From: Nemertoderma westbladi
Lineage: Eukaryota; Animalia; Xenacoelomorpha
DNA: 52,949 nucleotides
Direction of reading: 5' to 3'
Assembly: GCA_032718475.1 (NCBI GenBank)
Contig: JAUCBJ010001829.1
Coordinates: 1-52,949, forward strand
Position numbers and translations under genes: made by a program. The notes under the pieces were generated by a model. The model ran no database searches. It had not been told where the DNA came from and saw only the letters and a list, made by a program, of their open reading frames with translations. This document shows positions 2,539-50,930 of the stretch, piece by piece. The first letter of the stretch is position 1; each line of letters opens with the position of its first letter.

Positions 2539-2840
2539 TTTTTTTAGTTCTTCCTCAGGACATTGACTGTATATTATATTATATTCATCTTTAAAAATAA
2601 CACACAAAGCACAACAATTACTGGACAAACATAATTCAACCACCACCAGCTGTCATTACCCATCACCTAGCAACCGTATAAACACAAGGTAGAATAATGC
2701 CTACAGGACTGCCATACCAGTACTGTCTGCAGCTAATACCTGAATACTGCTGTACTGTAATGAACTGAACTATTATGTAGCTATTCAGTATTCATACATA
2801 AACAAAATGTTCTAGAATATAGTGTTTTTTTTAATAGAAT

Positions 2841-3899: not shown

Positions 3900-4160
3900 A
3901 ATAGAATAAATGGCGTGCAAGGGAAACAAATAAATGCAACTTTCGAATGCCCATATATCGGCTATTTCTCAACCAAATTCATATCTTTTTACATTTCTGG
4001 AATCCTTTCACCGTCAGCTTTCTATTGGTACCAACAAATCAAGTACAATTCAAGAATAACTTCAGTGTAACTGGTGAAATATAACCGGAGACACCTTTTT
4101 CAAACGCTTGTAGCTAAAGATTGAAAGCAAAAATAAAAATTCTGGCTCACCCAGCAAGGA

Positions 4161-6418: not shown

Positions 6419-7505
6419 GTAAGGTATGTTTTGTTTGCTGTAGGCTGTAGCGTACAGTAAATAGAGTATTCTTAGGCTGTTAGTTTAGATTACTGTATTC
6501 ACTGGTCGCGTACAATAGTACAGTAGTACATTAGGCTGATTGCTGTTACTGCGTACAGTAGAAAATACATTTGTTTTGCTGTACCGCGCACAGTATCATT
6601 AGGCTGTTAGGTTGGTGTACTGTTTTACTTACTGTACTGCGTACAGTGGATGTACGGTAGTGCGTTTTTACTAATTGCGAATACAGCAGTTCCTTAGGCC
6701 TTAGGGCAAACTGTAATTAGTAAGTTTTTTTGAAATTTTAGCTAGGTTTGCGAGAATTCAGTTTCGGTCAAAATTATTTGTAAAATTCTAGAGTTTTGTA
6801 CCGGTATGTTAGGTAACCGCTTAGTTATTTTATACCATCTGGAGATACATGGCAAGACGGAACTTCTGAGTTTGGGGTTCGTGTGGGTCTGCGGGTTCGG
6901 TTTGCAATCAGCGAAGGGACTGAATCTTTGGACGCGGACGTGGAATCTCACAGCAAACAAGGTTAGTTGTTCTGTTGGCACCATTGTGTTTGTGGAAGCA
7001 GTAAAAAATTACCGGTTGTTTAACTGCGAAGCTGAACTTAATTTATTAGTTAGGATATTTAGGTTTAGCCGGCCATGGTTTTTTGAATCGCTCAAGTTAG
7101 AGAGAGAGTTAGAGAGAGTCGCAACCCGAAGATGTAGCCACGCGCTAGTGGATACATATTATATTTGAAATTAAAATTACGTTGATTAGAGCTATATGTG
7201 CAAAATTGGAATTATTTGGGTGGCAAATTTATTCTGAATATTTTGTATTAGATTCAGAAATTATTTTGTGTCATACCAGTATTTAATTGCTATAATAGCT
7301 ATATAATAATATTTTTTGTTTAAATATTGTGCTAGTATTTGCTATAACTATACCCCATTAAATTCACAATATTGCATTGCGAATTTATTTGACATTTTGG
7401 ACCAACTGATTATTTGACAATTAATTTGACCGTATTTCGGTTAAATTATAATTATATCTCGAACTTTTGCGAGATTTTTGCCGGAAGGCAAACATTATTT
7501 AGACT

Positions 7506-10163
7506 ATGAGTGTCTCAGACAAAGAGGCACTAGAGGACAGCTATGAGATGGCGGCTGGACCGCCGACTGACGATAGCGTAAATATTACTGTTGACGACAA
7601 TGCCGACTATGACGACGCAGCGAGCGACGCTGACGTAAGTGAACAGGAGGACGAGACAGTAACTAGTGAGGAAGAGCAAGCAGAGGTAATAGTATTAGGA
7701 TCCCCTACCACTACTGTAAGGAAGGACCGCACAGCAGCCCGGACAGAGGTGAGTGATAGGGAGGGTAGTGTAGCAGAAGCGAGAGCCCGGAGCCTGGTTT
7801 CCAGACCTGTGGGTATGGTAAGTGCCGTGGTCCCAACGGCTGTTAGAAGTACCCGTAGTTCCCGAAATAATCCTTCAAGTCCACCGAGTGTGAGTCAGGT
7901 AAGCGAGAGAGAACTTGACATCGCGATAAAGAAGAAACTTCGCGCGCACGCCGGACATATAACTCGGACGACGGACAAGGTAAGGAAGATGTTAGCTGAC
8001 TCAGCCAACATCGGAAGGGTAGAGTTAGTAGAGATTAGAAGAGGATATAACTCAGCGTTATTCAAGCAGACGGAGGAGCTTGCAGTCCTAGCGAAGACGG
8101 CAGTAGAGTCTCAGTCGAGCGACGTTGCGACGAGGATTTACGACAGGGTTTTAGCAGCCTTGTTGGAGCACCGCGAGTTATCGGAGCGATTCCGACGAGT
8201 TAGGACGGAGAACTGGCTGCTATGGGCATCACAAGCGCAGGCGACTCAGGTGAGTGACGCAGAGTTGAGAGACTTAGTGGAGCGGGAAGAGATCCAAGAT
8301 AAAGAAGAGCGCCGCTATCAAAGGGAAGTTACTAGCTGGCTGATGCAGAATGGAGTGGTGGTACCGGGCCAGGTGCTACCGACGACGGAGAACATCCAAC
8401 AGAGGACGTTGACTCCACCCGATGATGCATCTAGAGACAGTGGCGATTCCCAGGTTAGTCACGCGCGAGGTAAAGTTATATGTGCTAGATCCCTTGTTTC
8501 TCACAACTCGGTGGAGGAGAGAAGACGCCGACTGGACGAACAACAGGCGGAAGTTTTGCGTGCATTGGAAGCACGGAAGGAAGCCGAGCGGGAAAGGGAG
8601 CGAACACATAAGTTAGACGCGAAGTTGCGCGAGCTGGAAGATAAAGGTAAGCGTGAGCGAGCGGAACGCGAGCAGAAGGAACGTGAACTCCAGCTCGAAC
8701 GCGAACGCAAGGAACGCGAACTCGAACTTGAACGCGAACAGAAAGAACGCGAACTCCAGCTCGAACGTGAACAGAAAGAACTCGAACTTGAACGCGAACG
8801 CAAGGAACGCGAACTCGAGATCGAGAAAGAGCGACAAGTGTTGTATGAAGAAAAGGCGCGTGTGGAAGAAGAGAGCGCAGCGAGACGAGCGAGGGAAGAA
8901 GAAGAACGTAAACTGGCGCAGTTGGAAAGTGCGAGATTAAGTTTAGAGAGCGAAGAACGGACTAGGAAGGCGAATGAAATCGCCGAGAAGGGGATGCGAA
9001 TGATCGAAGAATGTGGGGCGAGTGTAGGGACAGAGTTGCGAGAACTGTTCGCACTGCAGAAGGCCGAACAGGAAGCGAGAACTCCGACTATACGCGAGTC
9101 GACGACGACCAGAATTCCTATACCCGGTCCAGCTATTACGAGTACACGGATCGCTAAACCATTCTCTACATATCGCACGCCAGTTGGTATTAGTGCTTCA
9201 CCTATCGCGCAGAATCCGCGTTATCGGAACACCGCACCACTATACACCGAACGCGACAACGAAGAATTTAGAGAAGAAACTCCGACGGGCCGAGTATTGG
9301 GCGAACCGAACCCGCGGGTTTGGAATACGCGGACGGAGCGCCGACCCAGTTCGACGGAGAACTTCCGGGTTAAACCGGAAGAGGGATCATATGAGAGACA
9401 GCGGATTACTCAGATAGAGCCGACTATACAACAGAACCCTAGCCAGGAATTTATTACGAGGGATGAGTTAAGTGCTAGTTTAGCGCAAGCTATATCGCCG
9501 CACATCCAACCTATAATGGACATGCTTAGCAACCTACGGTTAAAGGAAGCAGCCCAGGTAAGAAGTAATTCTAACCCTAGCAGGACTGAGTTAGATAAAG
9601 TCCAGCCTAGTCAACGAGTACGCATATCGGAGGAGACTATACCACATAGACCTCAGGTAAGGACGCCTGTCCCGAATATTCATAATCCCAATTTCGAAAA
9701 CTCAGCCGAGAAATTTATTCAGGAGGCTTGGGTCAGGGCCTCGGCGCGCAAACCATCGCGAGCGCTAAGGACTGACACCGAATCAAGCGATGAAGAGGAA
9801 GACATGAGACGTCAGAAGTCCCGAAACTATAAGGAAAGAAGGACGGACGCGGAGCAGGTAAGTTTGAACCACCGGGAAAGGACCAGACTTAACAACCCTG
9901 CGGAACTAAACCATTTGTTAACCCGGAACGACGCAACCCTTAGGGACATAGGTAAGTTTGCTGCTAGGCAAGGACTGCCGACGCAACAACCCCAGAAGTT
10001 TATGGGCAACCACAAGCACTGGAGGACTTTCAAAACCTATGTCGACGAGCAGCTGACCAACAGCACCAGAAGTTCAACTATTTGCTTTAGATGCTCCATC
10101 GAGAACCTAGAGCCATTGCTGACAACTTCGTTGGCAATGAGAGAGCATTTGAGTTGGCAATGA
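7506..10163 (+). CDS. gag: BEL/Pao Gag, N-terminal part (acidic N-terminus, long E/R coiled coil, PQKFMG..W..F motif); frameshifted near 10055
   Basis: 885-aa ORF. The BEL gag motif continues in the next frame as QKFNYLL*MLHREP, implying a frameshift plus an in-frame TAG at 10088-10090. Confidence 0.8.
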   Translation: MSVSDKEALEDSYEMAAGPPTDDSVNITVDDNADYDDAASDADVSEQEDETVTSEEEQAEVIVLGSPTTTVRKDRTAARTEVSDREGSVAEARARSLVSRPVGMVSAVVPTAVRSTRSSRNNPSSPPSVSQVSERELDIAIKKKLRAHAGHITRTTDKVRKMLADSANIGRVELVEIRRGYNSALFKQTEELAVLAKTAVESQSSDVATRIYDRVLAALLEHRELSERFRRVRTENWLLWASQAQATQVSDAELRDLVEREEIQDKEERRYQREVTSWLMQNGVVVPGQVLPTTENIQQRTLTPPDDASRDSGDSQVSHARGKVICARSLVSHNSVEERRRRLDEQQAEVLRALEARKEAERERERTHKLDAKLRELEDKGKRERAEREQKERELQLERERKERELELEREQKERELQLEREQKELELERERKERELEIEKERQVLYEEKARVEEESAARRAREEEERKLAQLESARLSLESEERTRKANEIAEKGMRMIEECGASVGTELRELFALQKAEQEARTPTIRESTTTRIPIPGPAITSTRIAKPFSTYRTPVGISASPIAQNPRYRNTAPLYTERDNEEFREETPTGRVLGEPNPRVWNTRTERRPSSTENFRVKPEEGSYERQRITQIEPTIQQNPSQEFITRDELSASLAQAISPHIQPIMDMLSNLRLKEAAQVRSNSNPSRTELDKVQPSQRVRISEETIPHRPQVRTPVPNIHNPNFENSAEKFIQEAWVRASARKPSRALRTDTESSDEEEDMRRQKSRNYKERRTDAEQVSLNHRERTRLNNPAELNHLLTRNDATLRDIGKFAARQGLPTQQPQKFMGNHKHWRTFKTYVDEQLTNSTRSSTICFRCSIENLEPLLTTSLAMREHLSWQ

Positions 10164-13100
10164 AGATGCTTAGCGACATCTACGGGAATAAAACCAAGAT
10201 GGCGCAGTCGATAGTAGAAGACTTGGGTAAGGGCGGAAGGATTACAACTCCGTTAGAGCTGTTGAACTTAGCGAACGCTATTTCAAACGCATTGGACATC
10301 TTGAAGACGGTGAATCGACCTCATCATGGTGATCACGCCGAAGTTTTAAAAAGCGTAATAAGACGTTTAAACATGGGTTATCGACAGAAATGGCGCAAAT
10401 TAGAGAATAAGTTGGAGGGTCAAGGTAAGGTGTTGACACTTCAGCATATTCATGACATGATAGCCACAGACGCAGTAGCAGAGATGAAATCAAATTTCTC
10501 AGAGGAGAATATGAGGGAGTCTAAACCTGTTACCGGTAAGTCTATGGTAAGTTTTGACGATGACAGGACCACTGTGACATTTAACTCAGTAGACAGATAT
10601 AATTCGAGTACCCCAGCCTTTAGATCAGACTCGCGAGTATGGTCAGGTGAGCGGTTAGATAGACCTAGGTTAAAGCAACAGGAGTTGCCGGATGGTTTTG
10701 TAGGTTGCCAATACTGTTTACTAAAGGAGGTAAGATCTGACGACCATAAGTTAGATAGTTGCAGACGGTTCAAAGAATTAAATTCGGAACAGAGAAGAGT
10801 TCAAGTGCGGACGTTGGACACCTGTTGGGCATGTCTTGCGCCAGGTCATGTACGGCGGCAGTGCTCGAACAGCAAGGACGGATGCATGGAATGCGGCAGA
10901 CTACATCACAAGTTGCTACATGCGGATTTCCATACCCCAACGGACCATTACTTACAGCGAAATCCTCAAAGGAAGGGGAGCAAAGAACCCGTATCGATAA
11001 GGAGGAATACGTACACTGGCATCCAGGATGATGGTTACCAACCAGGTTCGTCGGATGAGGATGGCGAGTCGAGCGCGAGAGAAGTGACCTGCCAAGGTTT
11101 CACCGCGGATAGTTCATCGACCAGCGCGTGGACGTATTTATCATCGGCCACGTCGGAAATATTTAGCGTGATTCCGGTGAAACTCACTGGCGATAAGGGA
11201 TCGAAGCGAATATATGTGATGTTGGACACTGCGTCCACATTATCGTATATCGACGAAGAAGTGGCGAGTGCTGTTTCTAGCTTCCAGGACACCGAGGAGA
11301 TCCAAATAGAGTTGAAGTCTATGCACGGAGTAGGAGACCTCAAGGGACACAGAATTTCGGTGGAACTAGACTCCCTACTTCCGAGAGACCAACATACTCG
11401 ACAAGAATGGAAAGCTTTGCCATTGGACGGATTTAAGTGTCTAGCTATGAAGGGATTCGGCAGGCAGTTAGGTAAGGTGCCACCGATGAGTCCCATAGCA
11501 CAGGAGTATTTTGACAAGCTCAGGATACCCAAACATCAGGTAGGTTATAGGAATGTTTCTATGTTGATTGGTGCAGAACAGCTGATCGCACACCAAATAT
11601 GGGAAACGAGACCAGCTGAGCCGCATGTCAATGGACCACATGCCCATAGGACTATATTAGGTTGGTATACAAGAGTACCTATGTCTTATGAGTTTACAGG
11701 TGGCGACAAGCCAATATATAGATACAACGAATTACAGCCTATAACTGAACCACCGTTAGTAGAACCACCAGACATAGACGAGTTTAGGAGAACCTGTATT
11801 GACCACTATAGTGACTTTAGCGAGTCGGACGAGGAGTTGATTCCCGATAATGTTAGATTGTCGGAACCACTTCACAATGACCGGACAGATAGTGAACCCG
11901 AGGACTGTTATCAGACCCGTGGGTCTGGTTCAGCGGCCCACGCTACTTATCTGAGTAACGTTTTGACTTATACCAACATAGTGGAGGGTCAAGTGGCTAA
12001 ATATCGAGACCTAGACATTTTCCAATACAGTGAGGAGGAATTACAGAAGGAATTGATACGCCAGGACCTCGAGACAGGAGCTAGAACCGTCGAATGGCTG
12101 GATAGGGACGCAATGGAACCCGGTGGATATGACCTAGCCATGTCCACTGATGAGAAACGGTCGTTGGAGATGATGGAAGACACCATACGTCTGCTACCGA
12201 CAGGACATTTTGAAGTTGGAATGTTGTGGCGTCGACAACCACCTAAGTTGGAGAACAACTATAACTTAGCCTTGAAAAGATTGAATGGAGTAAGGGCTCG
12301 GTTGTTGAAGAATCCAGACATTAGGGAGAAGTATTGCGCCCAGATCAACAACTATTTCGCCAAGGGATTTGCTGGGAAGGTAGAGGACCCTGACTTAGTG
12401 ACAGACCAGACTTATTACCTTCCACACCACTATGTGACTCACCCTGACAAGCCAGACAAAGTCCGAGTAGTCAACGACTGCGCAGCAGTCTATAGAGGTA
12501 TGTCCCTGAATTCAGAGTTGATGGATGGTCCCAACCTGAATAATTATTTGATTGGAATACTGTTGCGTTTTAGACAGCGGCAATTCGCATTTACTTGTGA
12601 CATCGAGGCGATGTTCCACCAGGTAAGAGCCTGTAAGGCAGACCAGGATAGCCTTCGCTTTCTCTGGTATGAGAATGAAGACTTATCCGGCCCAGTGGTT
12701 ACATACCAGATGTACGTTAGGATATTTGGCGCCCGCGATAGTCCAAATGGCACGCTGTTCGTTTTAAAGAAAACGGCAACAGCCCAGATTGGTAAGTATC
12801 CAGTAGAAGTGATCGAGTCCATCTTGAGAAACTTCTATATGGACGACGGATTGGTGTCCAAGGACACGGCGGAACAAGCCATAGAAGTGGCTCACGGCCT
12901 GCAAGAGTGCTTGGCTACAGGGGGATTTCCTCTGACCAAGTTCACTACGAACTCGGAAGCCCTATTAGAGTCGTTCCCGGTGAAAGATCGCGGGAGCGGA
13001 GACATTGAATTGGGGGTAGAACCAATCCCCATGGCGCGAGTACTGGGACTCGCTTGGAATCCGAATACGGATAAGTTCCAGGTAAGAGTTAGATTTGAGC

Positions 13101-13903
13101 CCAGTAGCCCAGACAAAGTTTTGACTAAGAGAATTTGCTTATCGACATTGAGTAGACTATTTGACCCGATGAACTTTATCAGTCCGGTTATATTACAGGC
13201 ACGAGCGTGCATGAGGAAAATTTGGTTGTCCGACCTAGAGTGGGACGAACCAATATCTCCTATACATGCAAAGCAGTGGAGAGAGTGGGAAGCCGAGTTA
13301 CATCTATTGAAAAACATAGATGTACCCCGCTCCTACTTTCCGAATCAGCTGGTATTCCCAGCTGATTTAGAGCTGCATATGTTTAGTGACGTAAGTGACA
13401 CCGGCTTTGGTATGGTAGCCTACCTTCGCCGAGAGGTGAGTCAGGACAAGTTTGAGACGGCCTTTGTGACTTCTAGATCAAAGACAATGCCGGTCAAATA
13501 CATGACTGTCCCTCGTGCAGAGTTACAGGCGGCTGTAGTTTCAGTCGAGGTAAGTAAGCAGATAAATGAGGAGTTAGATACGACATTGACCTTATTCTAT
13601 TGGACGGACGCATCCTTGGTGTTAGTATATATTGCGGCCGACAATATTGCACTAAAGACATTTGTGGCCAATAGACGCGCTCAGATCGTTGATTTTTCGA
13701 CGAAGGAACAATGGAGACATTGTCCGGGAGTGTTAAACCCGGCCGACATAACTTCGAGAGGTGCAATGCCGGCGGAATTCTGTCAGGAAGAGTCGCAGGA
13801 GTTTTGGTTGCATGGACCTGATTTTCTAACGAGGACACAGGAACATTGGCCAGAGCGACTAAAGATAGTGACCAATCCGATTCCTGAAGATGCAGAAGTC
13901 TAG
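10091..13903 (+). CDS. pol: Gag C-terminus (three Cys/His boxes), aspartic protease, reverse transcriptase and RNase H
   Basis: Gag boxes CQYC..H..C, CWACLAPGHVRRQC, CMECGRLHHKLLH. Protease MLDTAST (DTA instead of DSG/DTG). RT DIEAMFHQV, IFGARDSP, FYMDD. RNase H FSDVS, PRAELQAA, WTDA, NPADITSRG. Ends at TAG 13901-13903, with a second in-frame TAG at 13907-13909. Confidence 0.93.
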   Translation: MLHREPRAIADNFVGNERAFELAMKMLSDIYGNKTKMAQSIVEDLGKGGRITTPLELLNLANAISNALDILKTVNRPHHGDHAEVLKSVIRRLNMGYRQKWRKLENKLEGQGKVLTLQHIHDMIATDAVAEMKSNFSEENMRESKPVTGKSMVSFDDDRTTVTFNSVDRYNSSTPAFRSDSRVWSGERLDRPRLKQQELPDGFVGCQYCLLKEVRSDDHKLDSCRRFKELNSEQRRVQVRTLDTCWACLAPGHVRRQCSNSKDGCMECGRLHHKLLHADFHTPTDHYLQRNPQRKGSKEPVSIRRNTYTGIQDDGYQPGSSDEDGESSAREVTCQGFTADSSSTSAWTYLSSATSEIFSVIPVKLTGDKGSKRIYVMLDTASTLSYIDEEVASAVSSFQDTEEIQIELKSMHGVGDLKGHRISVELDSLLPRDQHTRQEWKALPLDGFKCLAMKGFGRQLGKVPPMSPIAQEYFDKLRIPKHQVGYRNVSMLIGAEQLIAHQIWETRPAEPHVNGPHAHRTILGWYTRVPMSYEFTGGDKPIYRYNELQPITEPPLVEPPDIDEFRRTCIDHYSDFSESDEELIPDNVRLSEPLHNDRTDSEPEDCYQTRGSGSAAHATYLSNVLTYTNIVEGQVAKYRDLDIFQYSEEELQKELIRQDLETGARTVEWLDRDAMEPGGYDLAMSTDEKRSLEMMEDTIRLLPTGHFEVGMLWRRQPPKLENNYNLALKRLNGVRARLLKNPDIREKYCAQINNYFAKGFAGKVEDPDLVTDQTYYLPHHYVTHPDKPDKVRVVNDCAAVYRGMSLNSELMDGPNLNNYLIGILLRFRQRQFAFTCDIEAMFHQVRACKADQDSLRFLWYENEDLSGPVVTYQMYVRIFGARDSPNGTLFVLKKTATAQIGKYPVEVIESILRNFYMDDGLVSKDTAEQAIEVAHGLQECLATGGFPLTKFTTNSEALLESFPVKDRGSGDIELGVEPIPMARVLGLAWNPNTDKFQVRVRFEPSSPDKVLTKRICLSTLSRLFDPMNFISPVILQARACMRKIWLSDLEWDEPISPIHAKQWREWEAELHLLKNIDVPRSYFPNQLVFPADLELHMFSDVSDTGFGMVAYLRREVSQDKFETAFVTSRSKTMPVKYMTVPRAELQAAVVSVEVSKQINEELDTTLTLFYWTDASLVLVYIAADNIALKTFVANRRAQIVDFSTKEQWRHCPGVLNPADITSRGAMPAEFCQEESQEFWLHGPDFLTRTQEHWPERLKIVTNPIPEDAEV

Positions 13904-13943
13904 GTGTAGAAAGCCTCTAAGTCAAAGTCTAAAGCCAAACTCA

Positions 13944-14001
13944 AGTCATTGGAGCGGCCTGAAGAGTCATTGGAGCGGCCTGAAGAGTCATTGGAGCGGC
14001 C
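13944..14001 (+). repeat. 21-bp tandem repeat (about 3 copies) in the RNase H-integrase linker
   Basis: AGTCATTGGAGCGGCC(TGAAG) at 13944, 13965 and 13986; translates as SLERPEE. Confidence 0.85.
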
Positions 14002-14198
14002 CAGAGACCTGTCAGACCAACAGACTTACGTGACTACTAGGTCCGGAAGGGTAAGTTACGACATAAAACCACCCTTGCAGACTAAACCGGAGTCACAATT
14101 GGTAAGTGACGGACAGAAAATGACCGACACAATGGAGCCTTTGGTTTCCAAACCTGCGGGTTTGGATTCGAAACTTCCATTAGTTAGCGGACAATTAG

Positions 14199-15812
14199 TC
14201 GCTGGCATTAGAGCCATGTAGTATTTATGACAAATTACTAAATTCGTCTGCCTCTTGGCTGACAATTTGTAAAAGAACTGCGTGGTTAAGCCGATACGTT
14301 TCGTACCTTTGTTTAAAACATTCGAAACATTTAGGAGAACGAACGAGCACTAATAGTGAGCGAATTCAGAAATTGAAACAACCTCTGACAGAGGATGAGA
14401 TTGATCAAGCGGAATTAAAGCATTTGAAACATTATCAAATGTGTGCCTTCCCAAAAGAATTCTATCTATTATCGGCTCAACGACCAGTTCTCTATAAACC
14501 CCTTAGAAAATGGAGTCTATTAATCCATAAGGGTTTAATTTATCATAGATCGAGAATCCAGACTGTCGACATAAATTCACAGTTTAGGTTCCCAGTGATA
14601 ATCCCTAGTCACCCAATAGAATTGCAAAGAGCGATTCTATGGGATATACACAAGAGGTTGCATCATGCGGGAAAGTTACACTGTTTGTCGGCAGCGAGAC
14701 AGCGATTCATTCTATTGCAGCCAAGCAGGGCAGTAGGCACTATGTACGACGCCTGTCTGGTTTGCAAGAGAGTGAACGCCAGAGTATTGGAACAGGAGAT
14801 GGCTGAACTCCCGGAAGCGAGAGTGCAGGCATATGACCCACCTTTTACGAATACAGGGGTGGATTGTTTTGGTCCGATTGAGGCAAAGAGTGGACGGCTG
14901 ACCCACAAGCGATGGGGTCTGCTACTGACATGCATGGCTAGTAGAGCCATACACATTGAGCGTGTGGCAGACATGTCGACCAAATCTCTGCTCCTGGCCT
15001 TAAAGAGATTTATGGCCAGGAGAGGACTAGTAAAGGTGTTCTACTCTGATAAGGGTACAAACTTTGTCAGGGGGAACAGCGAGTTAAACGCGGCTCATAG
15101 AGCGGCGCAGAATAGAGAAATCTCTGCAGCACTTTTGCCGCAAAGAATAGAATGGAGATTCAATACTCCAGAAAGTCCTTGGAGAGGAGGAAGTTGGGAG
15201 CGTTTGGTTCGCTCTGTAAAGCAGGCCATTGCCAAAACATTGCCTGTGAACAAACAACTTACCGACGACGAACTGGTCACAGCTTTCATCGAAATCGAGC
15301 ATACATTAAACTCGAGGCCGATAGCTATGTTGCCAGACGGTGTTGCTTTAACGCCGAATCATTTGCTAATGCAGAGTCCAGCATTTCTTGTGCCGGCATC
15401 AGAACCCGTTAGTGCCGACCTATATAGTCGTAAAAGCTGGAAGGTGACACAATTAGTGGCGTACACATTCTGGGAATATTGGCGGGAATACTATCTTCCC
15501 ATCATATCCACCAGAACAAAGTGGTACAAAATGGTTCGGAGTCTCCAAGAGGGAGATTACGTACTGATAACCGAGCCAATTGTCAAGAGAAAGTATTGGG
15601 AGACAGGAGTGATCTTGCATATACACCCAGACGTGCAAAACATAGTGCGCACAGTCACTGTGAAAATTAGGTGCAAGTGTCCGCACCCAAAGAAGTGTAA
15701 AACTAATGGTTTACAAACCTTGGACCGACCGGTCCAAGATATCGTGTTATTAGAGGAGACACGCATCGAGACGGGAGATTATAATTTGTCTCCTGCCTCA
15801 AAACAGAATTAG
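14199..15812 (+). CDS. pol: Integrase (HHCC plus DDE), separated from upstream pol by stops and a frameshift
   Basis: Frame of ORF 14373-15812 is open from 14199 (SSASWLTICKRTAWLSRY). Motifs H..LHHAG...CLVC, GVDCFGP, YSDKGTNF, GGSWERLV, LNSRP, LTPNHLL, FWEYWREYY. Confidence 0.93.
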   Translation, partial: SLALEPCSIYDKLLNSSASWLTICKRTAWLSRYVSYLCLKHSKHLGERTSTNSERIQKLKQPLTEDEIDQAELKHLKHYQMCAFPKEFYLLSAQRPVLYKPLRKWSLLIHKGLIYHRSRIQTVDINSQFRFPVIIPSHPIELQRAILWDIHKRLHHAGKLHCLSAARQRFILLQPSRAVGTMYDACLVCKRVNARVLEQEMAELPEARVQAYDPPFTNTGVDCFGPIEAKSGRLTHKRWGLLLTCMASRAIHIERVADMSTKSLLLALKRFMARRGLVKVFYSDKGTNFVRGNSELNAAHRAAQNREISAALLPQRIEWRFNTPESPWRGGSWERLVRSVKQAIAKTLPVNKQLTDDELVTAFIEIEHTLNSRPIAMLPDGVALTPNHLLMQSPAFLVPASEPVSADLYSRKSWKVTQLVAYTFWEYWREYYLPIISTRTKWYKMVRSLQEGDYVLITEPIVKRKYWETGVILHIHPDVQNIVRTVTVKIRCKCPHPKKCKTNGLQTLDRPVQDIVLLEETRIETGDYNLSPASKQN

Positions 15813-16508
15813 TGTTGGACGCAACTCACTTCGTATGCATTCCTCGTATGCAAATACAAGGAAATGCATAGGAGCAGGTTGGCGGTGATTTGCGTTGAGT
15901 TTTGTCTAGTGGGTATCAAAACAAAATTTTATTTTCAAAAAAATTTGGAAAATTAAAAATTTTAAAAATTAGAGTGAACCCAAGACAATTCCAGACGCTG
16001 TGTATAGACGCGTTTTAGAATTCGTCTATAGATATACAGTAATTTGAAAAGTCGTGAAGCCTGGAAAATAGCATTTAGAAACCATGGTGACGGCTATATT
16101 ACGTAGGAGTGTAAATTGAGTTTAGCAACTTCCACAGATTGGAGCCAACAGTGCAACTAGGGTGCTAAAGGTTAGTAGCACCAGAGGCGTACATGGACCC
16201 CACTCAGTAGTTTGCAGTGATGTGTGATGTTCGATTATCAAACCTGTGGGTTTGGAATAGTCGAGTATTGTGGCTATAGTCCTTTCTAACTACTGTAGTT
16301 TAGTACGAGTAATGGGAGTAGTTTGGGCATCAAAAAGTGAGTTGGTCACGGCCAGTTTATCTCCAAAGTTTTTGCGCTATGCATGGGAATAGGTTAGAGG
16401 ATAGTTAGTTAGGAAGAGACGGGATCTGGAGAGTCGAACCTGAACTGCTGGAAGGCAGCGGGGGGGGGGGGGGGGGGTGGGTTCGGGAGGTCTGTCTTTC
16501 GGCAACAT

Positions 16509-16527
16509 CTAACTGATTTACCCACAG
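16509..16527 (+). promoter_or_regulatory. Candidate branch point and 3' splice acceptor upstream of accessory ORF3
   Basis: CTAAC at 16509-16513 followed by TTTACCCACAG ending at 16527, 60 nt before the ORF3 ATG. Consensus donor G/GTAAGT at 6156-6162 in the 5' LTR. Confidence 0.4.
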
Positions 16528-16586
16528 TGTAATTGGTTACGTAACGGAACACTTATTGGGATATATATGTATATACGCGGGGCATA

Positions 16587-18842
16587 ATGGAGAAGGATAT
16601 TAGAGCGCAACCGCGCAGAGGATTTACTGCCAGAGAGGAGGCGGAGTTACCATTCGCGCGACCGGGATGTAAAGATTCGAACGTTTACTACCATGGGCGG
16701 TTGGTGATGGAGCTAAATGGGAAATACAAACCCACTTATGATAAGGAATTACGGAGGGAAAGAATGAGAGCGTTGGGGGACCGTATGGAAGTTTTGCGGA
16801 AAGAGTATCGCACTCGGTATCCCTACGACTTCGCTTTAGACGTGTGCGACATCAGCGCAGATCCGGACGAGGAGATCGCACGGCTGTACCATATGAATAT
16901 GTATTTACGACATGAAGAACCCCTACCTGCAGTCCGAGATCAGTTTGACGGAATGCATCTGTACCGGAGGACTCGAGGCGAGGATCAGGAGACGCCGAAA
17001 ATCTTCAGCGTGTACAAGTTGTTTTACAAGTGCGGTGAATGCATGAATAAACAAGACATGGCGATTCCCGACCGACTGGACGAGCAACATCCAGAACCGA
17101 TATTAACGCGATGTCAAGCTCACCAGTTCCTTAGATATAACGAGGGAGGTTACCTGATGAGCAACCCGATGATCAGTATCGACTTCAGCGGAAAGCGACC
17201 TCCGAGACCCATTACGCCGACCGTTACGACATTAGATCCGTATACGGAGATTAAACCCTGTTCGACACCCAGTTTGATAGAGACGGCAGCGGCCATTTCG
17301 CTGTACCGAGCCTACAAGGATCTAGAGGCGCGGCGCAAAGCGGCACGGGACTCGGGTACCAAACCCGCGGGTTTGGAGCTCTCGAGTCCCTGGACTGCGT
17401 TTACTTCACCTCACCGAGCGAGAACCCTCACTCCTGAGCATCAGGACGACATAGACGCGTTGCGACAGGAGGAGCGAGCGGCGAAGGCGAAAGAGTTATT
17501 CGAGAATAGGATAGCGGAGTATAATAAGACCGCGGATAGACATCAAGAGGAGACGAGGAGAGTGACCGGATTTGTTCCACAGGCCGTATCTCAACCCCGA
17601 CCGGTGTATTATTCCGACGGCAACGAACCTGCGATATTAGTAGATCATCCGGAGTCGCGAGAAGCGATAAGATTCTTGCCGATGGTAAGAATGGCGGATC
17701 ATTGGAACGTTGACTGTCTACGGGAAGTTTTATGCGCGAAGTTCTTGCGTGATGTCCCAATGCAGATCACAGATTATGACACATTGGACAAGATTGGAGC
17801 TCCGGGGAAGGAGAGCAAACTGTTTGGATGGTTGGATAAGTACATCAAAGTATGGGTCGCGGTGGCTACATTCCCAGACGACGAGGAGGTAGACCAGACG
17901 TGGCTGAGGAGGAAGGGTTCTTACACCCGATATGATGACCACAAGGCTATCGAGCGCATGTGGACCCCATCAGACGAGATTCAGCGTCAGTGGAGGAAAA
18001 CGGAGGAATCACTGCAGGATTGGAGGGTGATGTTCTATGACAATGAAGGAGGGTCCCATCAGGAATGTTTGACTAGCAAGTGCATTCAAATTCGCGCAGC
18101 CGATGGTGTGACTCATGTGTTTATGCGCGTGAGGGCGGATAGAGAGAGACCGGAGCCCATCATAACGACACAATATCGGAGGGGGAAGGATCCTAGGGAG
18201 CAGATTTTGGAGGTATGCAGGCGAGGAGGTATGCACGGAGCGGAGCGTATCGACGCCAGGATGCTACCCAAGAAAGTTAGAGAGGCTATTCTCAACCAAG
18301 ATTACGTCAAGGTGGGATCGGGAGTCCAGAGCGATTTGGAGAGTGACTTCAACGCCATGACTGATCTGGAAGATAGATTGCCGAGACCATTCGTCGACAC
18401 CAAGCTATTGTTGCTATGGGCACAGGATATTGGAATTTATAGGGAGTATCCCAACTCTGCCAAGACTGGTATGGGCTTCATAGCACACTTATTGTATAAT
18501 TGGGACTTTAAGTTAAAGACGCAGAAGAAATACGAGGAGGCGTATGGCGAATACAACACGCCACCGGGAGCGGAGTTCAAATCCCACTTCAAGCGGCAAG
18601 CGTTAGTGTATTGGAACATTTGCGCGCCACCCCGTGCGTCGCTACAATATTATTTGGTGCTTGAGTCGAACACGGTGACTTGTTTATTAGTGGATATCGT
18701 TGCGCGAGTTTTGAAGCTGCCATCCATTGGTATTCGGAGGAGATCAATACGTTCGCTCGAAAGGGGGAATCCAATCCGACGTGATGAAGCTTTTCTTAAC
18801 CCCGTTCTTCAACCAATCGTTAGAGAATACGTCGATGGTTAG
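16587..18842 (+). CDS. Accessory ORF3, part A: unknown N-terminal region plus WRN/EXD/Mut-7-like DEDD 3'-5' exonuclease domain
   Basis: ExoI VMFYDNEG...CIQI (D 18039, E 18045); LPKKVREAILNQDYVKVGSGVQSD (ExoII D 18333); FVDTKLL; KTGMGFIAHLLY; W....P....LQYYLVLE (ExoIII-like YxxxE, 18651-18665). Probable +1 frameshift near 18720. Confidence 0.7.
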   Translation: MEKDIRAQPRRGFTAREEAELPFARPGCKDSNVYYHGRLVMELNGKYKPTYDKELRRERMRALGDRMEVLRKEYRTRYPYDFALDVCDISADPDEEIARLYHMNMYLRHEEPLPAVRDQFDGMHLYRRTRGEDQETPKIFSVYKLFYKCGECMNKQDMAIPDRLDEQHPEPILTRCQAHQFLRYNEGGYLMSNPMISIDFSGKRPPRPITPTVTTLDPYTEIKPCSTPSLIETAAAISLYRAYKDLEARRKAARDSGTKPAGLELSSPWTAFTSPHRARTLTPEHQDDIDALRQEERAAKAKELFENRIAEYNKTADRHQEETRRVTGFVPQAVSQPRPVYYSDGNEPAILVDHPESREAIRFLPMVRMADHWNVDCLREVLCAKFLRDVPMQITDYDTLDKIGAPGKESKLFGWLDKYIKVWVAVATFPDDEEVDQTWLRRKGSYTRYDDHKAIERMWTPSDEIQRQWRKTEESLQDWRVMFYDNEGGSHQECLTSKCIQIRAADGVTHVFMRVRADRERPEPIITTQYRRGKDPREQILEVCRRGGMHGAERIDARMLPKKVREAILNQDYVKVGSGVQSDLESDFNAMTDLEDRLPRPFVDTKLLLLWAQDIGIYREYPNSAKTGMGFIAHLLYNWDFKLKTQKKYEEAYGEYNTPPGAEFKSHFKRQALVYWNICAPPRASLQYYLVLESNTVTCLLVDIVARVLKLPSIGIRRRSIRSLERGNPIRRDEAFLNPVLQPIVREYVDG

Positions 18843-20295
18843 GAGAGGATTAGCGATATTCGAAGGAGTATATCGACAGAACATCGGAGATTTGGGAGAC
18901 CGACCGTCGATGGAATATCCGACGCCAGAAGCCTTGGAGAAGTGGTTCGGGAATCAAACCCGCGGGTTTGGTACTCCCTTCCACTCGGAGGCTGATAGAC
19001 CCGTTAAGGAGGGTTGGCCGGAGACGTTAGTAGAGGTGTTCGGAGTAGATCTTCCGGTGGAGAAGACATATCCGAAACGAACGCGGGAGGAAATATTGGA
19101 GATAGAGGACAAGGGCGAGGATGTTTACTTTGTTCCGGATCGACAACCGCTGACCGGAGAGGACGACATCGTATTAGACATTGGGAAAGAAGGAAGTGCG
19201 AAACCGATTGGAGACCTCATATACGAGAGGGCCTGGTTTCCACAAGCGCGTAGGTGTAAGTTGTGCGGCAGCACAAGGCACAATCAAAAGTCGTGCGACG
19301 CGGTAGTAGAGGCGGCGCATAAGGTCTGCCGTTGGTGTAGTGAGACCGACCATTCGTTTCACACGTGCACCGTCTTCGTTTCTCAATGCGGATATTGTGG
19401 GGTAAAGGGACATCGCAGCGCGAGATGTCAGCTGCGAGATGATTCCTTCCAAAACCATAGCGCTAACCTACTTCGGGAGATGTTAGATAAGTGGGAGAGT
19501 GTGGCCGACTACCACATCCAAGCGCAGATGCGTTGGTTACCATTTAAGGCGGGATACGGATTCTGGGCAGTAGACCCATCTCACGTTGCATATGAGCCGT
19601 ATTTACAGTCTTTGTCACAGTATCAAGAGCTCATCCTGACTGCTCAAGACCTTCCACAAAACACTGGAGTTATCGTAGTCCGAGAATACTTCAGACAGTT
19701 AAATATGGATAACAAGTATACTTGGAACTTTGTTGCCATTTGCGACCGGATTACAAAAGGTCTGTTTTCGGAAACTAGAAAAGTGGTACGCGCGCGAGGT
19801 GATTGGAGGATGGCGGCTATACAATACCGCAACGAATTCTTGTTGACTCATGTACCAGTGGGGTCATTGACCACTGAGAGGATACAGGAACAGAGAATCG
19901 CAGCGACCACAGCGACAACCACTGGAGCTCAAGGCTCGCGGAGAGAACCAGGAGGAGAGGTCCAAGACAAGCGTCAAGTCAAGGACGACCACTATCACTC
20001 TATTATAGAAGCACAGAGGTTGCAGCGCAAGGCGCAGGGTGCGTTGGAAAAGGCGCGCGTGCAATTGCAGAAGGAAGAGTTGGCGGAAGCGACCATAGGA
20101 GCACAACAATCGGGACGAGGCCAAGGTAGAAGTACCAGCCGGGATTCTGTCGGGGCTCAGGGAACATCGTCGCCGGTTCCGGGGAGTGACGCCTCACGGA
20201 CGCCGTCAACAGAATCTACTAGAGGACGCTTAGTGTATCTGGGAAGAGGGCGAAAGAGGGTAGCGAGCCCAAAGAACCCAGGAGCGGGTCAGTAA
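18715..20295 (+). CDS. Accessory ORF3, part B: three CX2CX4HX4C zinc knuckles, helical region, basic disordered tail
   Basis: CKLCGSTRHNQKSC, CRWCSETDHSFHTC, CGYCGVKGHRSARC at 19255-19428. Frame open from 18715; removing one C near 18720 joins parts A and B into ~1,235 aa. C-terminal GRGRKR is NLS-like. Confidence 0.75.
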   Translation, partial: SCHPLVFGGDQYVRSKGGIQSDVMKLFLTPFFNQSLENTSMVRRGLAIFEGVYRQNIGDLGDRPSMEYPTPEALEKWFGNQTRGFGTPFHSEADRPVKEGWPETLVEVFGVDLPVEKTYPKRTREEILEIEDKGEDVYFVPDRQPLTGEDDIVLDIGKEGSAKPIGDLIYERAWFPQARRCKLCGSTRHNQKSCDAVVEAAHKVCRWCSETDHSFHTCTVFVSQCGYCGVKGHRSARCQLRDDSFQNHSANLLREMLDKWESVADYHIQAQMRWLPFKAGYGFWAVDPSHVAYEPYLQSLSQYQELILTAQDLPQNTGVIVVREYFRQLNMDNKYTWNFVAICDRITKGLFSETRKVVRARGDWRMAAIQYRNEFLLTHVPVGSLTTERIQEQRIAATTATTTGAQGSRREPGGEVQDKRQVKDDHYHSIIEAQRLQRKAQGALEKARVQLQKEELAEATIGAQQSGRGQGRSTSRDSVGAQGTSSPVPGSDASRTPSTESTRGRLVYLGRGRKRVASPKNPGAGQ

Positions 20296-20787
20296 TACAT
20301 TATAGCACAGGGCGACAGACTCTAGATATATACATCATCGTCGCTCTGATGTATATTGTAGCATTTTAGAAATATCCGACTAGACTCATATACACTAGTT
20401 GCGCTGTTTTGAATTTATATTATGAGAGAGGCGAAGGAAGTGATTGGGGAGACAAACCTGCGGGTTTGGCTTACTCCTTTCACTTGCCCTAGCAAATTTT
20501 TTATATTTGATCTTGTATATAGTAATCATTATGTAAGAACGAACGAGAAACAATATTTTGTAAATTTAATTTGTATGTAATAATCGTTAAACAGTGAGAG
20601 AGATAATATTTGTAAATTTAATTTGTATGCAATTCATTATGCAATATCTATAGCAATATTTTGTAAATAGTAGGATTTATAGTATCAAGTATTTAGATTA
20701 TTTGAAAGGAAATTTATTTTGTTTGTATACATCACCTATACTCTTCTACAGTTGGAGGGAAACATTGTATGATTTCCCTTGGAGCGG

Positions 20788-23045
20788 TGTTACGGTATAT
20801 GGCGCTGTACACATTATTAGCCATTATACAGTATAATATATTGGTTCATTATACAGTATAATATATTAGTCCATTATACTGTACGCAATATTAGTCCGTT
20901 ATGCAATATAATTATTTAGATAAGGCATAATAGCGCAGTGACATTTAGATAAGGAAATTGAAACGCCCATATATTTTGAATTCATCCATTTTGTATAGTA
21001 TGTAGCCCTACCTACGTAATTTTGTATTAGGATATAAGTAGATAGTTCCAGGGTAGCAAGTTCAGTTGGACCCTGGATTTTGTGCTTGCTGTTATTAGCT
21101 TCGATAGGGCTAGCATCTAGGGACGCTATCCTAACCATTCCGCAGCCAGGGACATGATCCATTACCATATATGGTAATAATTCGCGGTTAGGAAGCCCTG
21201 AGGTTCACAATCCGGCTTTCTAATTGGACTAACTGTTTCCAGGTTGGTCTAATGTTAGCGCGGACTGGAGAGCCAATAGGAGAGCGATTGCATCACCCTT
21301 ATTGCATCACCCTTCTCGGATCACCTATAAATTGGCGGTTTGCCGGTAGAGCTGTACCTATATCACCCTTCACCTACTTTTAGGAGTACAATTTTGTGCG
21401 TATTTTCTGCATTTCTACCCTTTGATTAATTTTCTTGGAATGATTCGTTAGTGTTATTATTCTTAACTGTGTTTCTCAATCAATCCTATTGATTACTGCT
21501 AATTACAACCGGAACTATGATTTCTACCTCTTTCGTTAATGGTTCTATGTAATTCTTTTCGACGCAATAATCCTACGGGATTTCTGAGACTGTCAGACTT
21601 GTGATTTGCATGCGCCGCTACGGTAGCTATTCAATAAATGGAGGGCTAAGGTGCCAGTAGGCGGTGGGCTCATCGGGGGGTTAGCGACGAAGGGAGTGCG
21701 GAGGATTCAAAGGCGGGCAACGCTGGCGGGGGGTCAACGTTGTGGTCGGGCAATTTGGACTGTAGGTTGGAGACCGCTCGCTGGTACAGTAATTAGGGGG
21801 CTGATGATCCAGGTTTTGTCTCTATTTAGTATTAGGGGGCAGGAATTGGGTTAGTTAGGAAGCCTAGATGTACCCGGGAGGGGCCTGCATACCTTACAGT
21901 AGATTGCGAATTAGTCAATTGCGAATTATTATGTTGCGAATTATATAATTGCAGATTGTATAATTGCAAGTCGTGCTATTGTGATCTGTGATTGCTGACG
22001 CTGATTGGTGTGTTACTGAAGTGTGCCTATGATTACGAATGCTTAGGTAGGCGCCCCTTTCTCTTTGATTGATTTCTATTTCTTAGTTACAACAAATAAT
22101 TACTGATTAGGTCAAAGTAATACGGCATTTTAGGCTATTACTAGCGAAACCTGTTGTGTAATAAATTAGAATTACGCATTCTGGAACTCTTAGTAATTAG
22201 TGCGCTGTTACATATTTGTGACTGTAATTGATTAGTAAAATTAAGAATTAGTACGCAGCATAGCGGAGAGTAGCTAAGGTAATAATTTAGAGTACCGTAA
22301 ACTATTCACGCTGAGCGGTTATTTGCATTAGCGGGCAATAAGCTAGATCGCAGTAGTCAGTACGCAAGACACTAGTAAATTGCTGGCCTAAAGCCAGCTG
22401 CAGGCAAGTTTAGACCCAGAGCGGTATCACCCACGAAAGACATTGTACCGTACCATTATTTGATTATTTTAAATATTCTCGCATTCACACATTCCGTTAG
22501 GGAACCCTCAGTATTCGCGATTAGAAAAGACGTAAGCATTGGCGTATTTCAGTAGTAAAATTAGGCGTAAGAATACTCTGAGTGCAAAGCCCCTCGCACT
22601 CGTCTTAAGTAAGCTTAGGGAGCCGACTCGGGTTTGTTGTTTTGGTTATTCCCGCGTGGCTCATAGATTCGAACAGTTAGCTCTCTATCGAGCGATCGGT
22701 AGAGAAAGGAACAAGCGATTTTGCAGGAGCCGTGTAAATTTAGTAAAATATATTAGCGGACGGCAGATTAGCGCCATCCAACGGTAAGTAGCGGTTTTGT
22801 ATTTAGCAGCCTTTACAATTTAGTAATAGCACGCTCCTGATCCCCTTTACTTAACAGTAGAGCAGTCTTTGTGTCTTATTGGTTAGGCGAGAACTCATTA
22901 GGTTGGCAGAGAAGTATACGGGTATTTGTCTGTTCAACAGTTCTACTGTCAGTATAGGAGTCGCGCTAGTTTAACAGTAGGGTATGTGATTTGCTGTTGC
23001 TTGCAACAGTAAAGAGTGTATTCAGAGTTAGACTATTGTTTAACA
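20788..23045 (+). repeat. 3' LTR (2,258 bp)
   Basis: Copy of 4161-6418. Preceded by a short purine-rich tract GGAGCGG (20781-20787) in the PPT position and followed by TSD AAGGA. Confidence 0.96.
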
Positions 23046-23187
23046 AAGGAGGTGAAACTATCTCTATTTCAAATTCCATGCAATCTCATTAAGATTTGTA
23101 GAAAAATTTGATTAATGACACTATATTCCAGGACATGGTGTACTGAAGCAAATGGGTTATTTGGATGGAATTTGTAGATATAAACTA

Positions 23188-24365: not shown

Positions 24366-24510
24366 CAATCATGGTGGGTACCGATGACTTTCTCAAATGT
24401 GTTTGTTTGTGTTTTTATGTGTTTGTATACACACAACTGCTTGAAACTTAATGTTGATGGAATTGGATGAAACTTTGATGATAGGTTCATTATCGGACCT
24501 AGTTGTGTAT

Positions 24511-48504: not shown

Positions 48505-48533
48505 TGGCTTCCTTAGGAATAGGAGTAGTAGGG

Positions 48534-50004: not shown

Positions 50005-50073
50005 GTGGAACAATAACCTTCGAATTTGTTCGTTGACGTTCGAATTTGTAAGACTCTCATTTAAGACCTGACA

Positions 50074-50718: not shown

Positions 50719-50930
50719 TTCAATATACGAGCACAAAAAAGTTTACAAGCACAGGTTCAAATCCAACTAAAGCTCTATATATTTTGCATTGAAGTGGAAT
50801 ACTTTAGATGCTTGGGGGGAATCTGGTTTGCGAGGGATATTTGAATGGTGAGTATAACTATCCTTGAGAGTTAGTGTGACGTTATCTCACTATGGATGGG
50901 CTTTACCACTGTACTCGCATCTGCTCTCTC

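What the first reader, a model, noticed from the sequence alone, without database searches (positions are those of the whole stretch)
9306..20469. Seven copies of an 18-nt stem-loop spaced along the retrotransposon genome regardless of reading frame
Seen: CCAAACC-YGYG-GGTTTGG at 9306, 11911, 14148, 16238, 17359, 18954 and 20452 (spacing 1.1-2.6 kb); I found no full copy outside the element. Copies lie in gag, pol, the RH-IN linker, the intergenic region, both ORF3 parts and the 3' UTR. They are read in all three frames (NPRVW, QTRG, KPAGL), so amino-acid selection cannot explain them. Except for one terminal mismatch (20452), stem variants preserve pairing in the sense RNA: C>T opposite G, A>G opposite T, and one fully compensatory A-T>G-C pair at 11914/11925. 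Established: cUNCGg/cYNMGg are extra-stable tetraloops; dispersed stem-loops serve as packaging signals in RNA viruses; Arabidopsis VANDAL transposons accumulate motifs bound by their own anti-silencing VANC protein. Inference: a self-recognition code (packaging, dimerisation, export or protection), plausibly read by Gag or by the ORF3 knuckles. Together with ORF3 this would be a two-component cis-motif/trans-factor system.
Basis: partly seen in the sequence, partly recalled or inferred. Interest (0 to 1): 0.88.

Follow-up and report, generated by a model that had tools for sequence, protein, structure and literature searches.

The report
Evenly spaced hairpins along retrotransposon RNA
A very large, recently inserted jumping gene carries nine copies of one short self-complementary motif at remarkably even intervals, and these likely fold into small RNA hairpins that would serve as repeated docking sites for the element's own RNA-binding protein, although no binding has been tested.

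Summary
An 18.9-kb Bel/Pao LTR retrotransposon (2,258-bp LTRs, 99.3% identical, 5-bp TSD) carries nine copies, not seven, of a 7-bp stem with a YGYG loop. They are spaced 1.1-2.2 kb apart (evenness P about 3e-4), read in all three frames, avoid the enzyme cores and are absent from the rest of the window. Two pairs change compensatorily, and each copy's own flanks extend the stem better than swapped or shuffled flanks, which points to single-stranded RNA rather than a DNA site. Loop guanines 2 and 4 never vary, as in HIV nucleocapsid-binding tetraloops. Best reading (0.35): multi-point Gag docking sites for packaging a roughly 17-kb RNA; ORF3 (exonuclease-like domain plus three zinc knuckles) is the next candidate reader (0.25). 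The VANC/DNA analogy fits poorly. A second, unreported code turned up: 24 splice-donor-like motifs in gag-pol against 8.3 expected. Limits: one broken copy, no sister copies, no RNA data, no binding test; two copies are not predicted to fold in context.

The parts
4161..23045 (+). Bel/Pao LTR retrotransposon, 18,885 bp, flanked by 5-bp target-site duplication AAGGA (4156-4160, 23046-23050)
4161..6418 (+). 5' LTR, 2,258 bp; TATA-like site 4699-4704, AATAAA at 5006 and 5533, donor-like site at 6156; no hairpin copy
20788..23045 (+). 3' LTR, 16 substitutions from the 5' LTR, no gaps
7801..7818 (+). hairpin copy 1 (new; loop UGUG, G-A mismatch at pair 4/15; not predicted to fold in 218-nt context)
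9306..9323 (+). hairpin copy 2 (loop CGCG; not predicted to fold in context)
10625..10642 (+). hairpin copy 3 (new; compensatory U-A closing pair, G-A mismatch at 4/15; weakest copy)
11911..11928 (+). hairpin copy 4 (PR-RT linker; compensatory G-C at pair 4/15)
14148..14165 (+). hairpin copy 5 (RH-IN linker), extended basal stem
16238..16255 (+). hairpin copy 6 (intergenic), extended basal stem
17359..17376 (+). hairpin copy 7 (ORF3, upstream of the exonuclease-like domain); perfect 18-bp palindrome with a long basal stem
18954..18971 (+). hairpin copy 8 (ORF3, between exonuclease-like domain and knuckles), extended basal stem
20452..20469 (+). hairpin copy 9 (3' UTR)
7506..10163 (+). gag N-terminal frame (long low-complexity and coiled region); frame changes at about 10090-10160
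10091..13903 (+). gag C-terminal part with three Cys/His knuckles (10706-10933; the second begins C-W-A-C), protease, RT, RNase H; ends at two in-frame stops
14199..15812 (+). integrase frame (Integrase_H2C2, DUF5641), in another frame than the RH-IN linker 13910-14221
16587..18842 (+). ORF3 first part; RNase D/DEDDy-like exonuclease domain about 18030-18720
18715..20295 (+). ORF3 second part (other frame); three CCHC knuckles 19255-19428
7748..14106 (+). array of 24 splice-donor-like motifs G|GTRAG (20 GGTAAG), sense strand only, ending about 40 nt before hairpin 14148
16509..16527 (+). candidate branch point and splice acceptor 60 nt upstream of the ORF3 ATG
   Evidence: motif scan only

Best explanation
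The nine motifs are predicted to fold as RNA hairpins on the element's transcript, and their two invariant loop guanines likely dock the zinc knuckles of the element's own Gag, which would let Gag capture and condense an unusually long (about 17 kb, inferred) genomic RNA at many points during particle assembly. Shown: sequence, spacing, pairing pattern, location outside enzyme cores, knuckles in Gag.
For: 60 of 63 stem cells pair; 2 of 7 pairs change on both sides (23 of 500 shuffles as high). Each copy's own flanks extend the stem better than swapped flanks (permutation P 5.5e-4, 3.3e-3, 5e-5 for 15, 20, 25 nt), better than shuffled flanks (P 1.5e-4), and the real-site advantage (-5.3 kcal/mol) exceeds all 40 random-site sets (mean -0.24, minimum -2.98): a double-stranded DNA site would not need this. 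7 of 9 cores are predicted paired at P>=0.86 in context. Loop G2 and G4 are invariant in 9 of 9 while positions 1 and 3 vary; HIV-1 NC knuckles bind exactly G2 and G4 of the SL3 and SL2 tetraloops (PMC7599994 section 21). The second Gag knuckle has an aromatic residue right after its first Cys, as HIV F16/W37 do; none of the three ORF3 knuckles has. Spacing CV 0.23 (P 2.8e-4); the two long gaps span RT-RH and IN, and 0 of 9 copies lie in enzyme cores (P about 0.02), as expected if density along the RNA is selected wherever the protein tolerates it. Dispersed loop-sharing stem-loops with spacing effects are the hallmark of packaging-signal-mediated assembly (PMC6281560 passages).
Against: No binding, probing or expression data. 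Copies 7801 and 9306 are not predicted to fold in context (P 0.02 and 0.00). Flank pairing is also significant on the antisense strand (P 0.003), so it shows single-strandedness more than which strand. Three of nine copies lie in the predicted spliced ORF3 mRNA and none in the roughly 3-kb leader, where retroviral packaging signals sit. None of 80 other Bel/Pao loci shows such an array, so it is not how Bel/Pao Gag generally works. In HIV the GGAG loop can be replaced without losing packaging (PMC7599994 passage). Core boundaries were drawn after the sites were known. One copy of the element only.
Confidence: 0.35

Rival explanations
1. ORF3, made from a spliced mRNA, binds the hairpins with its three knuckles and escorts or shields the unspliced RNA (export or protection from decay and silencing), offsetting the donor-like array that would keep that RNA unspliced and nuclear: a dispersed Rev/RRE- or CERV-like circuit.
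For: ORF3 is exonuclease-like plus three CCHC knuckles. A branch-point/acceptor candidate precedes it. 24 donor-like motifs in gag-pol against 8.3 after synonymous shuffling (0 of 300 as high), whereas control elements are depleted (87 against 155 in 76 loci). Controls lack both ORF3 and arrays. Precedents: CERV (PMC10309623 abstract and section 15); an exonuclease-fold domain binds stem-loops in Egalitarian (PMC13186709 passages).
Against: Co-occurrence rests on one positive case; the DNA around P0121 could not be read. Three copies are on the ORF3 mRNA itself. No RNA data show the splice. ORF3 knuckles lack the first-position aromatic residue. One control (L067) has excess donors without hairpins.
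Confidence: 0.25
2. A host RNA-binding protein reads the hairpins (export, localisation or stability signal borrowed from the host).
Against: No Rfam family matches the element region; no copy in the other 34 kb of the window; no host candidate identified.
Confidence: 0.15
3. The copies act by RNA-RNA pairing: any YGYG loop can kiss any other, linking two genomes along their length or compacting one.
For: Y1-G4 and G2-Y3 complementarity holds for every loop pair, G-U included; all 81 pairwise cofolds are at or below the sum of the separate hairpins. MoMuLV SL-D dimerises through two G-C pairs of a tetraloop (PMC7599994 section 18; GACG loops, PMC13736810 passage).
Against: Any hairpin can form an extended duplex, so the energies are not specific; the pyrimidine restriction is also what CpG-to-TpG change yields; it does not explain the conserved stem sequence.
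Confidence: 0.12
4. The motif is a palindromic double-stranded DNA site for a dimeric factor (VANC-like anti-silencing or transcription control).
For: Copy 17359 is a perfect 18-bp palindrome; the copy is subject to CpG decay (9 of 14 LTR transitions at CpG), so protection from methylation would be useful; the strand asymmetry is only borderline once mutation bias is allowed for.
Against: Sequence-diverse paired flanks; paired changes on both arms in the same copies; 0 G-to-A against 7 C-to-T changes in the loop; none in the LTR promoter; VANC motifs are non-coding tandem repeats (PMC5735166 passages); ORF3 and Gag carry RNA-type domains.
Confidence: 0.08
5. Neutral relic of internal duplications or template jumps.
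For: Flanks of 18954 and 20452 are somewhat alike (P 0.005, uncorrected, 1 of 36 pairs; three more pairs at 0.03-0.045); copies sit where sequence is free to vary.
Against: Mean flank identity 0.26-0.29 while the core is 87% identical; even spacing; three frames; synonymous shuffling leaves 0.09 of the 7 coding copies.
Confidence: 0.05

Closest known systems
Multiple dispersed packaging signals of ssRNA viruses (MS2, parechovirus, HBV pregenome; PMC6281560, passages)
   Same: Many stem-loops along the genome sharing a loop motif, variable lower stems, spacing matters
   Different: Here in an LTR retrotransposon; upper stem nearly fixed in sequence; only nine, about 1.6 kb apart; no capsid-protein binding shown
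Retroviral NC-binding tetraloops (HIV-1 SL2 GGUG, SL3 GGAG; RSV SL-C; PMC7599994 sections 19, 21, 22)
   Same: Short stem with a tetraloop whose G2 and G4 are fixed; CCHC knuckles encoded by the same element. That the RSV SL-C loop reads UGCG, as two copies here do, is recalled and was not found in the texts read
   Different: Retroviral signals are clustered in the 5' leader; these are spread over gag, pol, ORF3 and the 3' UTR and absent from the leader
Cer1 CERV and HIV Rev/RRE export systems (PMC10309623, abstract and section 15)
   Same: Extra element protein likely from a spliced mRNA; long unspliced RNA that keeps splice signals
   Different: ORF3 is an exonuclease-like, triple-knuckle protein with no likeness tested to CERV; the cis element is dispersed and partly on the spliced RNA
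DEDDy exonuclease ORF3 of bdelloid Juno/Vesta LTR retrotransposons (PMC5408684, passages)
   Same: Extra RNase D-like ORF downstream of pol
   Different: Bel/Pao backbone, fused triple knuckle, about 1,200 codons in all; no hairpin array in the passages read
RSV negative regulator of splicing (PMC9143442, passages)
   Same: Decoy donor inside gag, a precedent for the donor-like array
   Different: One element in RSV; 24 dispersed motifs here; unrelated to the hairpin itself
VANDAL/VANC anti-silencing motifs (PMC5735166, passages)
   Same: Family-private repeated motif plus a candidate element-encoded reader
   Different: VANC binds dsDNA 9-mers in dense non-coding tandem repeats of a DNA transposon

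Membership tests
Bel/Pao LTR retrotransposon | Pao-type pol and integrase domains in PR-RT-RH-IN order | tested here: met
   PF05380 E 5.7e-38, PF18701, PF17921; 120 listed homologs at 36-41% all carry PF05380
Bel/Pao LTR retrotransposon | Three Cys/His motifs at the end of Gag | tested here: met
Bel/Pao LTR retrotransposon | TG...CA LTRs with short target-site duplication | tested here: met
Bel/Pao LTR retrotransposon | tRNA primer-binding site next to the 5' LTR | tested here: inconclusive
   No TGG directly after the LTR; six CA..TGG candidates further in; not matched to tRNAs
Bel/Pao LTR retrotransposon | Clade within Bel/Pao | not tested
   No named reference elements were at hand; best identity to any homolog 41-43%
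Dispersed packaging signals | Multiple dispersed stem-loops sharing a loop motif | tested here: met
   (in silico)
Dispersed packaging signals | Specific binding by the capsid/Gag protein and an effect on assembly | not testable with these tools
   needs binding and packaging assays
Retroviral Psi (NC-binding hairpins) | Tetraloop with exposed G at positions 2 and 4 | tested here: met
   9 of 9 by sequence; reference
Retroviral Psi (NC-binding hairpins) | Located in the 5' leader | tested here: not met
   no copy upstream of 7801
Rev/RRE- or CERV-type export system | Trans factor made from a spliced mRNA | tested here: inconclusive
   donor and acceptor candidates only; no RNA data
Rev/RRE- or CERV-type export system | Cis element confined to the unspliced RNA | tested here: not met
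   3 of 9 copies lie downstream of the candidate acceptor
VANC/VANDAL motifs | dsDNA motif in dense non-coding tandem repeats | tested here: not met
   7 of 9 copies in coding frames; none inside a tandem array
DEDDy 3'-5' exonuclease (ORF3) | Exo II Asp and Exo III Tyr/acid | tested here: met
   Exo II block is the best-scoring site in ORF3 (pairwise profile E 4e-4); Exo III Y-x3-E by alignment to P0121, whose Exo III aligns to RNase D
DEDDy 3'-5' exonuclease (ORF3) | Exo I D-x-E | tested here: inconclusive
   intact in P0121; register unresolved in the window protein; both folds failed (pLDDT 33-34)
Extra-stable cUNCGg / cYNMGg tetraloops | Loop and closing pair fit in all copies | tested here: not met
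   2 of 9 and 5 of 9 (motif definitions recalled)

The most novel reading that the evidence does not exclude
The element writes two dispersed codes into one RNA: 24 decoy splice donors that hold the gag-pol RNA unspliced, and nine evenly spaced hairpins that its own exonuclease-knuckle protein ORF3 reads to license export or protection. That would be a complex-retrovirus-like regulatory circuit, built from distributed signals, in a Bel/Pao retrotransposon.
Probability: 0.2. Interest if true: 0.88.

Novelty: new variant of a known kind. Interest (0 to 1): 0.7.

Why it matters
How LTR retrotransposons pick out and handle their own RNA is poorly mapped, and very long elements face the problem most sharply. 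This element offers a defined 18-nt RNA with natural variants, two candidate readers encoded in cis, and a spacing rule, so the question becomes testable with short oligonucleotides and small protein domains. Ten literature searches (open-access full texts only) listed no report of an evenly spaced hairpin array or of a donor-motif array in an LTR retrotransposon. Unchecked notes of this scan describe hairpin arrays in other LTR elements, so it may be one case of a wider, undescribed habit rather than a one-off.

Tried and rejected
No genome is held for the window and no sequencing runs were obtained, so genome-wide counts, sister-copy conservation, synonymous constraint and expression are untested. 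Relatives: none closer than 41-43% in Pol; ORF3 has one homolog among 1.84 billion representatives, and none was added. Motif scan of viral contigs: 32 loci, 32 of 32 single-copy and without homology to the element. The best motif-like hit in controls (L051/L052/L058, one family) is a single site in the integrase region with a different loop; taken as chance. Rfam: two weak miRNA-family hits just outside the element, nothing inside; an iron-responsive-element reading (recalled geometry) fails for lack of a constant bulged C. Structure predictions of the exonuclease region failed and the fold search on one of them gave nothing. I first read ORF3 as a dead nuclease from alignment A3 and dropped that: the Exo I register is unresolved. 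A first flank test without holding the core paired gave clear z-scores for only 3 of 8 sites. The de novo array control is weak for degenerate arrays: the element's 5' half scored only 2, as most controls do. PF01612 was not found in five viral records tried as a source of references. No supplements were read; they could hold unlisted element structures.
Full report
Setting. The finding lies in an 18,885-bp LTR retrotransposon (4161-23045). The LTRs are 2,258 bp, differ at 16 positions without gaps, begin TGTTA and end TAACA, and are flanked by AAGGA on both sides. Pfam gives PF05380, PF17921 and PF18701, and the 120 listed Pol homologs, at 36-41% identity, all carry PF05380: a Bel/Pao element without close relatives in the collections searched. 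This copy is broken: a frame change in gag near 10090-10160, two stops at 13901-13909, a frame change near 14200 and one in ORF3 at 18715-18842. No genome is held and no reads were obtained, so everything below rests on one copy. A transcript of about 17 kb is inferred from a TATA-like site at 4699 and AATAAA motifs in the LTR.

The observation. All seven copies are present as described. Six lie within one mismatch of the pattern, against none in 500 Markov simulations. A matrix built from the seven finds two more: 7801 (23.7 bits, never reached in 500 simulations) and 10625 (15.5 bits, 0.042 per simulation, so modest alone); the best site outside the element scores 8.3. A covariance model of the nine finds no tenth site; the next scores 11.9 bits against 27.5-31.1, the latter circular. 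The gaps are 1505, 1319, 1286, 2237, 2090, 1121, 1595 and 1498 nt (CV 0.23; P 2.8e-4 in 50,000 random placements). The two long gaps span RT-RNase H and integrase. Eight of nine copies fall where almost no homolog aligns, the ninth in a poorly conserved part of Gag; none lies in an enzyme core (P about 0.02, boundaries set by me after the fact). Synonymous shuffling leaves 0.09 of the 7 coding copies on average, so protein sequence does not produce them.

RNA or DNA. Of 63 stem cells 60 pair; pairs 4/15 and 7/12 each change on both sides in one copy (23 of 500 shuffles as high). Two copies have G-A at 4/15 and one has a terminal mismatch. The stronger evidence is outside the core: with the inner pairs held, each copy's own flanks extend the helix better than another copy's (P 5.5e-4, 3.3e-3, 5e-5 at 15, 20, 25 nt; by pair count P 0.011, 0.105, 0.003) and better than shuffled flanks (P 1.5e-4 sense, 0.003 antisense); 40 sets of random sites never approached the real advantage. 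The flanks are not alike in sequence (identity 0.26-0.29). This is what a hairpin needs and a duplex DNA site does not. Against: 7801 and 9306 are not predicted to pair in 218-nt context. All 12 one-sided C>T or A>G changes suit the sense strand, but 11 of 14 LTR transitions are C/T too, which lifts P from 5e-4 to about 0.055. CpG decay acts on this copy (9 of 14 transitions at CpG, 90 CpGs per LTR), at a rate too low to have made most of the 7 loop changes after insertion (inference).

Specificity. Among 80 other Bel/Pao loci (583,548 nt, 54 families at 85%) the largest dispersed hairpin family had 1, 2 or 3 members (22, 55 and 3 loci) against 8 here; no locus has an ORF3 homolog, and motif-like hits are single. 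The test is weak for degenerate arrays: the element's 3' half scored 5 but its 5' half only 2, and the controls are shorter (2-22 kb). In viral contigs 32 of 32 exact matches were single and unrelated.

Candidate readers. Gag ends in three Cys/His knuckles. ORF3's two pieces match one 648-aa protein, P0121, in order: the exonuclease-like part (E 5e-5 in 1.84 billion proteins; 27% over 166 aa) and the three knuckles with the segment after them (pairwise E 8e-7), so ORF3 is one protein. The domain resembles PF01612 (25 of 30 atlas hits, top score 0.92, a lead only) and RNase D around Exo II (pairwise profile E 4e-4). P0121 keeps all three Exo motifs; the Exo I register in the window protein is unresolved, so activity is open. 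Extra DEDDy ORFs are known from rotifer LTR elements (PMC5408684, passages). Loop positions 2 and 4 are G in 9 of 9 copies; HIV-1 NC binds G2 and G4 of the SL3 and SL2 tetraloops through pockets built on Phe16 and Trp37 (PMC7599994, section 21). The second Gag knuckle has Trp at that position; the three ORF3 knuckles do not. This tips the choice to Gag, narrowly.

A second code. GGTAAG occurs 20 times on the sense strand of gag-pol (7817-14101) and once on the antisense; it is the top hexamer (19 against 2.0 expected in the stretches counted) and is absent from integrase, the intergenic region and the 3' UTR. G|GTRAG occurs 24 times against 8.3 after synonymous shuffling (maximum 15 in 300), in two codon phases. 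Control elements are depleted (87 against 155 in 76 of 80 loci with a long ORF), except L067 (10 against 3.5), which shows no hairpin array. A branch point and acceptor candidate lies 60 nt before the ORF3 ATG. The nearest precedent is the single decoy donor in RSV gag (PMC9143442, passages). Whether the two arrays work together is untested; both start within 300 nt of the gag ATG.

Mechanism. Most likely the hairpins are repeated docking sites on the RNA for element-encoded knuckles. I put Gag-mediated multi-point capture and condensation for packaging at 0.35, ORF3-mediated export or protection at 0.25 (precedents CERV, PMC10309623 abstract and section 15; Egalitarian's exonuclease-fold domain, PMC13186709 passages), a host reader at 0.15, loop-loop pairing at 0.12, a DNA site at 0.08 (PMC5735166 passages) and a neutral origin at 0.05. 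It works like dispersed packaging signals (PMC6281560, passages) but cannot be filed there without binding data, and it fails the leader-location test for a retroviral Psi.

Novelty. Ten searches of open-access full texts listed nothing on such arrays in LTR retrotransposons; I saw listings for most hits, passages or named sections for nine papers (including PMC6431247, and PMC13736810), and no supplements. Unchecked scan notes report hairpin arrays in other LTR elements; they are leads, not support, and suggest a recurring pattern. Verdict: real, selected, most likely RNA-level, reader unknown; new variant of a known kind; interest 0.70.

Noticed in passing
window 7748-14106: 24 splice-donor-like G|GTRAG motifs on the sense strand of gag-pol (8.3 expected after synonymous shuffling), stopping just before hairpin 14148; none in integrase. 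Deserves its own follow-up.
   Followed up: partly
L067 1538-5824: One unrelated Bel/Pao locus also has excess donor-like motifs (10 against 3.5), without a hairpin array.
   Followed up: partly
window 6419-6850: No TGG-type primer-binding site directly after the 5' LTR; the sequence starts GTAAGG and continues degenerate repeats of the LTR end, so the LTR may have been longer or priming unusual.
   Followed up: partly
window 16460-16481: G-run just upstream of the ORF3 acceptor candidate; possible internal polypurine tract, while the purine tract before the 3' LTR is short.
   Followed up: no
window 16567-16589: A six-codon upstream frame whose stop overlaps the ORF3 start (TAATG), a stop-start arrangement.
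   Followed up: no
window 7813-7822 and 10637-10642: The two copies with a G-A mismatch read G|TATG on the 3' arm, closer to a donor motif, and both lie inside the donor-rich zone; 7801 overlaps a full GGTAAGT.
   Followed up: partly
window 6858-6900: Half-site-like sequences (TGTGGGTCTG, TGCGGGTTCGG) and a weak hairpin in the leader; below significance in matrix and model searches.
   Followed up: partly
window 6419-20787 versus 23046-52949: CpG observed/expected 1.05 inside the element, 0.57 outside: a CpG-depleted host and a lineage that has so far escaped long-term decay.
   Followed up: partly
window 45265-46359: Uninterrupted 364-aa frame with a neurotransmitter-gated ion-channel ligand-binding domain.
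   Followed up: no
window 2764-3771, 46987-48462, 24508-25417: Non-LTR reverse-transcriptase frames; 24508-25417 is a 97% identical partial copy of the 47192-48505 region.
   Followed up: no
window 36277-37794, 50020-50777, 29966-30550, 2375-2538: Tandem arrays of 87, 22/30 and 68 bp, and a 164-bp near-perfect palindrome.
   Followed up: no
P0121 (no window coordinates): Single homolog of ORF3 with exonuclease-like domain and three knuckles, on a 9,449-bp contig whose DNA could not be read; the best place to test motif-ORF3 co-occurrence.
   Followed up: partly
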